From Raja brachyura (lineage: Eukaryota), in assembly GCA_963514005.1 (NCBI GenBank), contig OY740783.1:71176001-71240000 (forward strand): DNA of 64,000 nt, in the 5' to 3' direction. Below the pieces are notes generated by a model. The model did not search any database and was not told the DNA's origin. It saw only the letters and a program-made list of their open reading frames with translations. Made by a program: the position numbers and the translations under genes. Of the stretch, positions 11,271-54,388 are shown piece after piece; positions within the stretch are counted from its first letter, which is position 1; every line of letters begins with the position of its first letter.

Positions 11271-12205
11271 TTAGATTCCTATATAACATTGCTGACTATA
11301 GATTAATACAATATATAATATCAATTTATCCATTCTTTCTTTGCCTCGGTAGAAATAAAATACTGCGCAGGCATGCTTCAGGCGATGATATTTCCCTTTT
11401 ATATCTAAGGATCCAGTTGCAAATGTGTCACTGACCTCCTCATCAGCACACTGCAACCTGTCCAGATTGCTAACAACATCTCCTCACTGACCATCAACAC
11501 AGGTGCACCTCTAGGCTGTGTACTTCACCCCTTGCTCTACTCACTTTACACCAAGAACTATGTTCAAGAGCACAGCACCAATGCCATCTACAAATTCACC
11601 AATTACACCATTGCTGTGGCCGAATCACGGATGGTGATGAGTCAGTGTACAGAAGAGGGATAGAACGTCTCGTGGAATTCATTGCCATGGATAGCTGTGG
11701 AGGCAAAGTCAATGGACCTTTTTCAGGAAGAGATTGACAGTTTCTTGATTAGTAAGGTTACCAAGGGTTATGGGGAGGAGGAGAATGGGGTTGAGAGGGA
11801 AAGATATATTAGCCATAATTGTATGGCAGAGTAGACCGAATGGCCTATTTCTGCTCCTATAACTTATGAACCTAACTGCATGACAGCATAGCAACAACCT
11901 TTTGCTCTGTGTCAACAAAACTAAGGACCTAATTATTAACTTCAGAAGGGGAAGTCCAGAGATCATGTGCCAGGTTTCATTGATGGGTCGGAGATGGAGA
12001 GAGTTAGCAGCTTCAAATTCCTGGGTGTTAACATCTTGGATGACTTGGTTTGGGCCTGGTAGATGTAATATTAAAGAGTGTCAGTAACTCCTCCTTCTAA
12101 GACGTTAAAGCAGATTAAGCATGTCACTGAATATTCTATCAAAGATCAATAGATGCACTATAGAAAGTATCCTGACGTTCCATTATGGCCTGATATGGCA
12201 ATTCC

Positions 12206-12341
12206 TCTTCTTCTTTCGTGTGGCGTGCACAGCCTAAAGTTTATGGACGACTTGTTCTATTGATCTTCCGTTTGTGCACGTCGAGTTCATTGCATTAGTC
12301 GAAACAGGGCGGACCACTTGAAGGTTGCAATTTTCCACCCC
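12206..12341 (-). mobile_element. Short non-tRNA retroposon with 5' HDV-like ribozyme, copy 1
   Basis: 13-bp TSD atat[g/a]gcaattcc at 12193-12205 and 12342-12354; (AAG)n tail; homologous to 54249-54388. Confidence 0.85.
12289..12341 (-). ncRNA. Predicted minimal HDV/CPEB3-like self-cleaving ribozyme
   Basis: P1 GGGGUGG/CCGCCCU with G1-U wobble; P2 AUUGCA/UGCAAU; P3 ACC/GGU; L3 UUCAAGU; J4/2 CUAA with candidate catalytic C at 12298. Confidence 0.75.
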
Positions 12342-13079
12342 ATATAGCAATTCCAATGCACAGGAATGCAAGAGAGGTGAACACAGCGTGGCCCATTACT
12401 GGCACATCTTTCCTTACAAATGGAACAATCTACATGAGATGCTGGCTCAAGAAGGTTTGGTTTAGTTTAGTTTATTATTATTATTGCACATGTAACGAGG
12501 ATTCATGAGGGTATAACACTTAGTGCAAGATGAAGTCCAGTAAATTCTGATTGAAGGTCTGATTTGGAGGTCTCCAATGAGTAGATGAGAGGTCAGGACC
12601 AACCCCCACATTCCAGTTCATGCACTCTTCTCTCTGCTACCATTCTGCAGGAGGTACAAATGCCGTAAGTCCCACACCACCACAGATGTAGGAGCAGCTA
12701 CTTTCCTATAACTATCAGGTTTTTGAAACAACTGGCACAACACTAGTCCTAGCTCAGTGACAGAACACGGCAGACCATCGCTTTTACGACCATGGATTGG
12801 TTTCTAATTGTGTTGTTGCACTAATGTCTTATCTGGCACTGTCTTTTTCTTTTGACCGTCTTGTGTTATATATGTATAATTTATGATAAAGTAGTTGAAA
12901 TGTTCTGTGTGTTGTCCAAATCTACATGTTGGGATGCTGCTGCAAGCAAGGTTTTCATTGTACATATACCTCATACACTTGTATATTGTATTGTAATTAA
13001 TTTATTAACCAAGTATGTAAAAACATACAAGGAATTTGTTTTGCCATACAGTCATACCAAAAAAGCAACAACACACAAC

Positions 13080-54248: not shown

Positions 54249-54388
54249 CTTCTTCTTCTTGCATATGGCGTGCACAGCCTAAAGTTGTAGGACAACGCTC
54301 GATTTGATCTTATTTGATTGTGCACGCCGGGTTGATTGCATTCATCAAAACAGGGTGGACCACGTGAAGGTTGCAATCTTCCAACCCA
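54249..54388 (-). mobile_element. Short non-tRNA retroposon with 5' HDV-like ribozyme, copy 2 (nested in a tRNA SINE)
   Basis: Perfect 12-bp TSD agcatcgggagt at 54237-54248 and 54389-54400; (AAG)n tail; ribozyme fold at 54334-54387. Confidence 0.85.

What the first reader, a model, noticed from the sequence alone, without database searches (positions are those of the whole stretch)
12193..12354. Short retroposon headed by a minimal HDV/CPEB3-like ribozyme and inserted exactly from the cleavage site
Seen: a 136-bp minus-strand insert with a 13-bp TSD and (AAG)n tail, and no tRNA/5S/7SL-like head that I can recognise. Its first 53 nt read GGGGUGG-AAA-AUUGCA-ACC-UUCAAGU-GGU-CCGCCCU-GU-UUCG-A-CUAA-UGCAAU. 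This gives a 7-bp P1 starting with a G1-U wobble, a 6-bp P2, a 3-bp P3 with a 7-nt loop, an almost absent P4, and a C-N-A-A J4/2 (C at 12298). G1 directly abuts the TSD. Established: this is the nested double-pseudoknot layout of HDV and CPEB3 ribozymes, which cut 5' of G1, and HDV-like ribozymes define the 5' ends of R2, some RTE and L1Tc/ingi elements. Inference: a promoter-less SINE-like family that excises itself from read-through transcripts and borrows a LINE RT (Ingi/Vingi- or RTE-like). I cannot tell whether it has been described.
Basis: partly seen in the sequence, partly recalled or inferred. Interest (0 to 1): 0.88.

Follow-up and report, generated by a model that had tools for sequence, protein, structure and literature searches.

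The report
Ribozyme-headed mini Vingi retroposon
This is one copy of a 136-base jumping element, present thousands of times in this genome, built from the two ends of a longer retrotransposon that is most likely of the Vingi group; it begins with a predicted, unusually small self-cutting RNA of the hepatitis-delta/CPEB3 type that likely cuts the element out of longer transcripts.

Summary
Confirmed. Window 12206-12341 (-) is a retroposon copy with a 13-bp target duplication (one mismatch). Its 22-nt tail motif has 7,992 exact genome matches. In 55 of 58 tail-selected copies with a detectable duplication, the duplication ends within -3..+4 of G1. It is an internal-deletion derivative of a decayed ~3.1-kb APE-RT LINE of the same genome, sharing its first ~75 and last ~40 bases. 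Clade features point to Vingi. The 53-nt head fits the HDV/CPEB3 double pseudoknot with P4 cut to 5 nt. Two further LINE families here start with full-size versions: 0 of 48 pair cells broken, 9 of 16 pairs changed on both sides. Cleavage is untested. The design is known (NARTc/RIME, R2 SIDEs). Not found in the papers searched: ribozymes attributed to Vingi, and a P4-less form in an animal retroposon. Corollary: named Vingi 5' ends and one metagenomic Vingi-like element nearly equal the mammalian CPEB3 ribozyme, which may be an exapted Vingi head.

The parts
12342..12354 (-). Target-site duplication, upstream copy (13 bp), abutting G1
12289..12341 (-). Predicted minimal HDV/CPEB3-like ribozyme (53 nt); predicted cleavage 5' of G1 at 12341
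12335..12341 (-). P1 5' strand (pairs with 12306-12312; G1.U wobble)
12326..12331 (-). P2 5' strand (pairs with 12289-12294)
12313..12325 (-). P3 stem (3 bp) and 7-nt L3 with U20, C22, G25
12299..12305 (-). G37-U38 (single-pair P1.1 as in the CPEB3 model) plus a 5-nt remnant in place of P4
12295..12298 (-). J4/2 C-U-A-A; predicted catalytic C at 12298 (C in 69 of 71 aligned copies)
12267..12288 (-). Rest of the LINE-derived 5' part (approximate end); holds an 8-nt arm complementary to the tail
12206..12242 (-). 3' part shared with the end of the partner LINE (last codons and stop, short 3' UTR, AAG repeats)
12193..12205 (-). Target-site duplication, downstream copy (one mismatch)
54249..54387 (-). 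Second, older copy of the family in this window, 12-bp TSD; the predicted catalytic C is changed to T

Best explanation
The element is a short non-autonomous derivative, made by internal deletion, of a LINE of this genome that is most likely of the Vingi clade; its 5' 53 nt are predicted to fold as a P4-less HDV-like ribozyme that likely cuts itself out of longer transcripts just before G1, after which the LINE's protein would copy it in trans. SHOWN: multicopy family; TSDs and AAG tail; both ends shared with a ~3.1-kb APE-RT LINE; 5' ends at G1; HDV layout kept with two-sided base changes across three LINE families here and one element from elsewhere. INFERRED: (1) a host or neighbouring Pol II transcript reads into a copy; (2) the double pseudoknot folds co-transcriptionally and C44 with Mg2+ cleaves, leaving a 5'-OH RNA that starts at G1 and is capped by the folded ribozyme; (3) the LINE protein binds the 3' ~40 nt, perhaps helped by a 5'-3' helix, and primes reverse transcription on the AAG tail at an APE nick; (4) cDNA runs to G1, so daughter copies begin at the cleavage site with an intact ribozyme and no 5' flank.
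For: Family size: 7,992 exact tail-motif and 4,518 exact head-motif matches; reversed-pattern controls 0. 5' ends: of 84 independent tail-selected loci, 70 have the head within 330 bp; 58 of these have a TSD, 55 ending within -3..+4 of G1 and 43 compatible with exactly G1. Loose contig ends pile at 12341 in three public runs labelled organisms C, D and E. Partner: L153 (G000:C11) has the head at its 5' end and the tail at its 3' end ~3.1 kb apart, with PF14529 and RVT_1 fragments; five other LINE copies carry the head inverted at the truncation point. Structure: Rfam's three hits on L002 are all HDV-type. Families B and D (34-41% amino-acid identity to A and to each other) start with full-P4 HDV folds: 0 of 48 cells broken, 9 of 16 pairs with two-sided change; with L419, 0 of 64 and 11 of 16. 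Shared non-CpG variants fall in 0 of 38 constrained columns versus 10 of 66 others (Fisher p = 0.008); in the head they sit only in J1/2 and the N of C-N-A-A. Clade: the L419 head passes the CPEB3 gathering score (55.6 bits), is bounded by a 14-bp TSD and resembles the 5' sequences of named Vingi families in the PMC5786205 supplement.
Against: No cleavage or RNA-end data. The window copy gets no Rfam ribozyme hit and L002 scores below the gathering threshold. The nested MFE of the window head prefers an eighth P1 pair over P3 (-14.3 vs -12.4 kcal/mol). Within family A there is no two-sided covariation; it comes only from between-family comparison of hand-parsed representatives (n = 3-4). Only 3 of 12 family-A LINE copies with a visible head reach G1/G2; the rest start later (counted by eye). 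In B 13 of 18 and in D 18 of 26 start at positions 1-2. No intact family-A ORF was found, and LINE copies are 84-89% identical to L153, while the young short subfamily is ~3.8% from its majority letters, so its actual driver is not identified. Of 9 metagenome loci with upstream DNA, only 2 (the same insertion) hit the descriptor. Exact 5' ends are also expected from an internal promoter.
Confidence: 0.8

Rival explanations
1. Dual system as in L1Tc Pr77: the head is an active ribozyme and also an internal Pol II promoter, so copies do not depend on read-through.
For: [quoted passage not shown] Thousands of dispersed copies.
Against: No promoter evidence here; the head is only 53 nt and most positions are accounted for by the fold. 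Not exclusive of the best explanation.
Confidence: 0.3
2. The HDV fold is a catalytically dead or very slow relic in this P4-less family; it acts as a 5' cap or protein-binding element, and an internal promoter or RT run-off sets the 5' end.
For: P4 is lost relative to families B and D. A competing P1 extension is predicted. Rfam score is below threshold. Many family-A LINE copies lack the first bases.
Against: The catalytic C, U20, C22, G25, G37 and A47 show no subfamily-level change. P4-less HDV-like ribozymes are active in vitro (bioRxiv 2023.06.13.544163, passages).
Confidence: 0.13
3. An ordinary Pol III SINE whose head only resembles a ribozyme.
For: Weak A-box-like (position 5, 3 mismatches) and B-box-like (position 38, 2 mismatches) matches to recalled consensus motifs; short length and exact 5' ends.
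Against: No tRNA and no Rfam small-RNA hit. The head is the 5' end of a protein-coding LINE. The fold is kept with two-sided changes across families.
Confidence: 0.04

Closest known systems
NARTc / RIME / SIDER (trypanosomatid L1Tc/ingi derivatives with the Pr77 ribozyme)
   Same: [quoted passage not shown] Sister clade.
   Different: Here an animal genome, a 53-nt head without P4 (L1TcRz is 77 nt with P4), and a partner LINE with no RNase H match. Promoter activity unknown.
R2 SIDEs (Eickbush and Eickbush 2012, PMC3414825)
   Same: Non-autonomous, internally deleted, ribozyme-processed from a co-transcript (search listing; review passages PMC6765202).
   Different: R2 is site-specific in 28S rDNA with an RLE endonuclease. 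This family is dispersed, has TSDs and an AAG tail, and has an APE partner.
Vingi-1_EE non-autonomous derivatives and other bipartite Vingi/RTE elements
   Same: Same clade (likely) and the same internal-deletion origin (PMC5786205, passages and section 23).
   Different: [quoted passage not shown] Kojima 2011 itself was not held.
Mammalian CPEB3 ribozyme (RF00622)
   Same: Best Rfam match; identical L3, G-U after P1, single-pair P1.1, C-N-A-A.
   Different: Different P1/P2/P3 sequence, no P4, mobile and multicopy; 27.3 bits is below the gathering score of 35.
Minimal HDV-like / theta ribozymes (drz-Mtgn-1; phage tRNA-associated)
   Same: They lack P4 and keep the core (bioRxiv 2023.06.13.544163, passages).
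   Different: Those were assigned to gut phages or unassigned metagenomes; this one heads a retroposon in a 2.7-Gb animal genome.

Membership tests
HDV-like ribozyme | Nested double pseudoknot: 7-bp P1 with G1.U, P2, 3-bp P3, P1.1 | tested here: met
   Parse; descriptor hit; 0 of 64 cells broken across four families. P1.1 is one pair (C22-G37).
HDV-like ribozyme | Conserved core: U20, C22, G25 in L3; catalytic C in C-N-R-A of J4/2 (consensus recalled; aligned to Rfam models) | tested here: met
   C44 in 69 of 71 aligned copies; same positions in families B, D and L419.
HDV-like ribozyme | P4 helix (dispensable in minimal members) | tested here: not met
   5 nt between U38 and C44, against 40-43 nt in B and D; fits the minimal subclass.
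HDV-like ribozyme | Mg2+-dependent self-cleavage 5' of G1 | not testable with these tools
   No assay; only assembled contigs were available.
Rfam RF00622 CPEB3 ribozyme | Score at or above the gathering threshold of 35 bits | tested here: not met
   L002 27.3 bits; window copy no hit. The unrelated element L419 does pass, at 55.6 bits.
Bipartite non-autonomous LINE | Only the 5' and 3' ends of an autonomous LINE, no ORF, TSD and simple-repeat tail | tested here: met
   Positions ~11-72 and ~101-136 match the ends of L153/L155; alignment; TSDs.
Vingi clade (partner LINE) | Compact single ORF with APE and RT, no RNase H (PMC13708176 passage) | tested here: met
   ~3.1-kb element with PF14529 and RVT_1 fragments. 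Intact ~1000-aa homologues show APE, RT and a weak zf-RVT match and no RNase H. The family-A frame itself is broken.
Vingi clade (partner LINE) | 5' end like that of named Vingi families | tested here: inconclusive
   Indirect: L419 (38% amino-acid identity to family A) has a head nearly equal to Vingi-2_Gav in the PMC5786205 supplement. Family A shares the fold and L3, not the stems.
Vingi clade (partner LINE) | RT phylogeny with Repbase Vingi, Ingi and RTE references | not testable with these tools
   No named reference protein of these clades came back.
Pol III SINE (tRNA/5S/7SL head) | Small-RNA-derived head with A/B boxes | tested here: not met
   only 2-3-mismatch box matches in the head.

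The most novel reading that the evidence does not exclude
HDV-like ribozymes are the general 5' terminus of Vingi retrotransposons; this family is a P4-less, ~53-nt animal version amplified to many thousands of copies, about 45% of sampled copies (31 of 68) still structurally intact and able to cut host transcripts that read through them; and the mammalian CPEB3 intronic ribozyme is an exapted Vingi 5' end (35 of 37 core bases equal to the TSD-bounded element L419; 38 of 40 plus 14 of 14 equal to gharial Vingi-2_Gav).
Probability: 0.55. Interest if true: 0.82.

Novelty: new variant of a known kind. Interest (0 to 1): 0.64.

Why it matters
It would add Vingi to the LINE clades that end in a self-cleaving ribozyme. 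That would close a gap noted in PMC5786205: the four clades that spawn bipartite elements (RTE, Ingi, R2, Vingi) would then all be ribozyme-headed, which suggests why a ~135-bp piece with no promoter can amplify. It would place a minimal P4-less HDV ribozyme, so far tied to phages and metagenomes in the papers seen, in thousands of copies in an animal genome, as a natural mutational series and a possible source of intron cleavage. It makes the origin of the mammalian CPEB3 ribozyme directly testable. Vingi-1 is also being used for gene insertion with native 5' UTRs (PMC13708176, passages), where a 5' ribozyme would matter for template design.

Tried and rejected
Rfam on the window region: no ribozyme hit. 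Whole-element folding: z = 0.03, uninformative for a pseudoknot. RNA evidence: no RNA holder listed and no raw reads; contigs laid cannot show starts, strand or expression. The head pattern found 0 matches in metagenome contigs. An intact family-A LINE was sought and not found among 150 scored candidates. The 5' end of a fourth family (C; L189/L192/L201) was not reached. Descriptor scan of metagenome Vingi-like loci: 7 of 9 without a hit, though L358 and L364 look HDV-like by eye. The first cross-family count had an off-by-one for L419, corrected. PDB and Atlas searches gave no clade name. The Pfam match to Exotox-A_cataly is below cut-off and was treated as noise. Earlier scan findings: none. 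Not held, so not read: Kojima 2011, Ruminski 2011, Webb 2009, Webb and Luptak 2011, Riccitelli 2014. These may already report Vingi-type ribozymes under other clade names: I recall active sea-urchin and lancelet HDV-like ribozymes from Webb 2009, and they may be the Vingi-2_SPur and Vingi-1_BF heads. The review PMC6765202 states that some LINEs and SINEs of metazoans use HDV-like ribozymes. Repbase, Dfam and patents were not searchable. RTE as partner was set aside on domain type and C-terminal motif (recalled criteria) and on the link to named Vingi heads.

Full report
Observation. A 13-bp duplication flanks it (12342-12354 and 12193-12205, one mismatch), G1 at 12341 abuts the upstream copy, and the element ends in AAG repeats. 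The first 53 nt parse as P1 (7 bp, G1.U), J1/2 (3 nt), P2 (6 bp), P3 (3 bp), L3 (7 nt), G-U, a 5-nt remnant in place of P4, and C-U-A-A with C at 12298. A generic HDV descriptor, written after seeing the target, hit only this site on both strands of the window and nothing in 5.12 Mb of Markov-shuffled sequence. Rfam missed the window copy in a 2.5-kb search. For the 96%-identical copy L002 in a 121-nt search, its only three hits were CPEB3 (27.3 bits, E 8.7e-6; gathering score 35), HDV and HDV-F-prausnitzii.

Family. The genome is 2.70 Gb in 1,647 contigs; the host is an animal by inference, probably a fish, and was not identified. It holds 7,992 exact matches to a 22-nt tail pattern and 4,518 to a 32-nt head pattern, with reversed controls at 0. 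To avoid selecting for full length I sampled by the tail. Of the first 100 listed matches I took 89, leaving out 11 of a 12-copy duplicated cluster, and then dropped 5 with duplicated flanks. Of the 84 left, 70 have the head within 330 bp. Of the other 14, 3 are LINE 3' ends, 3 are full copies split by a later insertion, 1 has an internal inversion and 7 are unresolved. A TSD was found in 58 of the 70: 55 end within -3..+4 of G1 (positive offsets are G-run ambiguity), 43 are compatible with exactly G1, 1 is at +14 and 2 at -6. In three public runs labelled organisms C, D and E, loose contig ends pile at 12341 (153, 132 and 134 contigs). There is a young subfamily (38 copies, 3.8% from column-majority letters) and an older one (30 copies, 8.3%). 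Of 68 well-aligned copies (3 misaligned rows dropped), 31 keep all 16 pairs and the core bases.

Partner LINE. One tail-selected locus (L059) continued upstream into a reading frame ending in a Cys/His motif. Walking 5' gave L153, a ~3.1-kb element with the same head at its 5' end and the same last ~35-40 bases plus AAG at its 3' end, with APE (PF14529) and RT fragments. Five other copies carry the head inverted at their truncation point, as twin priming of a head-bearing RNA would leave it (mechanism inferred). The short element is therefore the LINE's first ~75 and last ~40 bases with a short filler. All family-A LINE matches scored are broken, so the source of protein for the young short subfamily was not found. 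Intact ~1000-aa homologues show APE and RT and no RNase H, which fits the description of Vingi in PMC13708176 (passages). No RT tree with named references could be built.

Structure test. Copies decay neutrally, so family A alone gives no two-sided covariation. Its shared non-CpG variants avoid the fold: 0 of 38 constrained columns against 10 of 66 others (p = 0.008; 8% threshold, few source lineages, and an indel affects columns 70-74). In the head they fall only at position 8 (J1/2) and position 45 (the N of C-N-A-A). The CpG filter removed G32-to-A, which turns U5.G into U5-A and is the state in the LINE heads. Two more LINE families in the genome, B and D (34-41% amino-acid identity among A, B and D), begin with full-size HDV folds with 40-43-nt P4 regions; 13 of 18 B heads and 18 of 26 D heads align from positions 1-2. 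Rfam's best hits in a 3.2-kb B locus are again HDV and CPEB3, below threshold. Hand-parsed representatives of A, B and D keep all 48 pair cells, with two-sided changes at 9 of 16 pairs (B needs one bulge in P2). Against the reading: only 3 of 12 family-A LINE heads reach G1/G2 (by eye), and the window head's nested MFE favours an extra P1 pair over P3 by 1.9 kcal/mol.

Outside the genome. Of 80 metagenome loci encoding relatives, 9 kept DNA upstream of the ORF. Two, which are the same insertion (L419, L420), hit the descriptor, against 0 of 450 controls. L419 is a ~3.2-kb element bounded by a 14-bp TSD that ends one base before G1. Its head passes Rfam's CPEB3 gathering score (55.6 bits, E 1.7e-14) and equals the consensus at 35 of 37 core bases. 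The supplement of PMC5786205 prints 5' sequences of Vingi-2_Gav, Vingi-4_Crp and Vingi-1_BF and a segment of Vingi-2_SPur. By eye, Vingi-2_Gav equals the CPEB3 consensus at 38 of 40 5' bases and 14 of 14 3' bases. The paper's passages do not call these ribozymes. This links the clade studied here to named Vingi families, and suggests that the CPEB3 ribozyme is an exapted Vingi head. That is inference; strong constraint on the fold and reverse capture are not excluded.

Mechanism. Most likely (0.8): read-through transcription, self-cleavage before G1, recognition of the 3' end by the LINE protein in trans, target-primed reverse transcription from the AAG tail, and a daughter copy that starts at G1. 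The sequence-level steps are shown; cleavage, transcription mode and protein use are inferred. A segment just behind the ribozyme can pair with the segment before the tail in short A, B and D, with unrelated sequences. Matched pairs gave p 0.005-0.15 and no cross-family pair fell below 0.05, but the signal was not significant in two decayed A LINE copies. Rivals: dual promoter-ribozyme as in L1Tc (0.3, compatible with the best reading); dead fold (0.13); Pol III SINE (0.04).

Comparison and novelty. The design is known from NARTc/RIME/SIDER (PMC4035085, passages), R2 SIDEs (PMC3414825, listing; PMC6765202, passages) and Vingi-1_EE derivatives (PMC5786205, passages and section 23). The last paper lists ribozymes for six clades, not Vingi. 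Searches for Vingi with ribozyme, Vingi alone, minimal ribozymes in eukaryotes and CPEB3 origin listed no paper that, by title, abstract start or the passages I read, reports this family, a Vingi ribozyme or a Vingi origin of CPEB3. Five key papers were not held, and Repbase, Dfam and patents were not searchable, so prior description is possible, above all under other clade names. P4-less ribozymes were tied to phages and metagenomes in bioRxiv 2023.06.13.544163 (passages; its supplement not seen). Verdict: real; new variant of a known kind; interest 0.64.

Noticed in passing
L419:3775-3848 (same insertion in L420): A TSD-bounded ~3.2-kb Vingi-like element from a metagenome contig starts with a head that passes the Rfam CPEB3 threshold (55.6 bits); named Vingi heads in the PMC5786205 supplement are as close. 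Possible Vingi origin of the mammalian CPEB3 ribozyme.
   Followed up: partly
L264-L277, L195:1599-4648 (family B); L314-L341, L344 (family D): Two more Vingi-like LINE families in this genome, each beginning with a full-P4 HDV-like fold and ending in AAG repeats.
   Followed up: yes
L277 (~235 bp), L320 and L335 (~420-450 bp): Families B and D also have short internally deleted copies keeping both ends; copy numbers not measured.
   Followed up: partly
window 12273-12280 with 12223-12230 (-); equivalents in B and D: Complementarity between the segment after the ribozyme and the segment before the tail, with different sequence in each family; modest statistics.
   Followed up: partly
base before G1 in tail-selected copies: Pyrimidine in 49 of 70 copies (T 37, C 12, G 13, A 8; p = 0.0005); several copies have 1-2 extra bases between the TSD and G1.
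   Followed up: no
P0002 versus L347/L348/L153: A protein annotated from the eel Synaphobranchus kaupii is 66-72% identical to decayed family-A frames, far above families B and D; possible horizontal transfer.
   Followed up: no
L152, L154, L156, L157, L158: Family-A LINE copies with the head inverted at the 5' truncation point, as in twin priming.
   Followed up: partly
L358 and L364, upstream of the ORF: HDV-like-looking heads with non-standard L3 lengths that fail the descriptor.
   Followed up: no
window 54249-54387 (-): Second, older family copy nested in another repeat, with the predicted catalytic C changed to T.
   Followed up: yes
G000:C1:14.80-14.95 Mb: Twelve tail matches spaced about 8-27 kb apart on one strand, probably a tandem segmental duplication.
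   Followed up: no
window ~11400-12460: The element sits inside a decayed LINE-like RT fragment (identification recalled, not tested).
   Followed up: no
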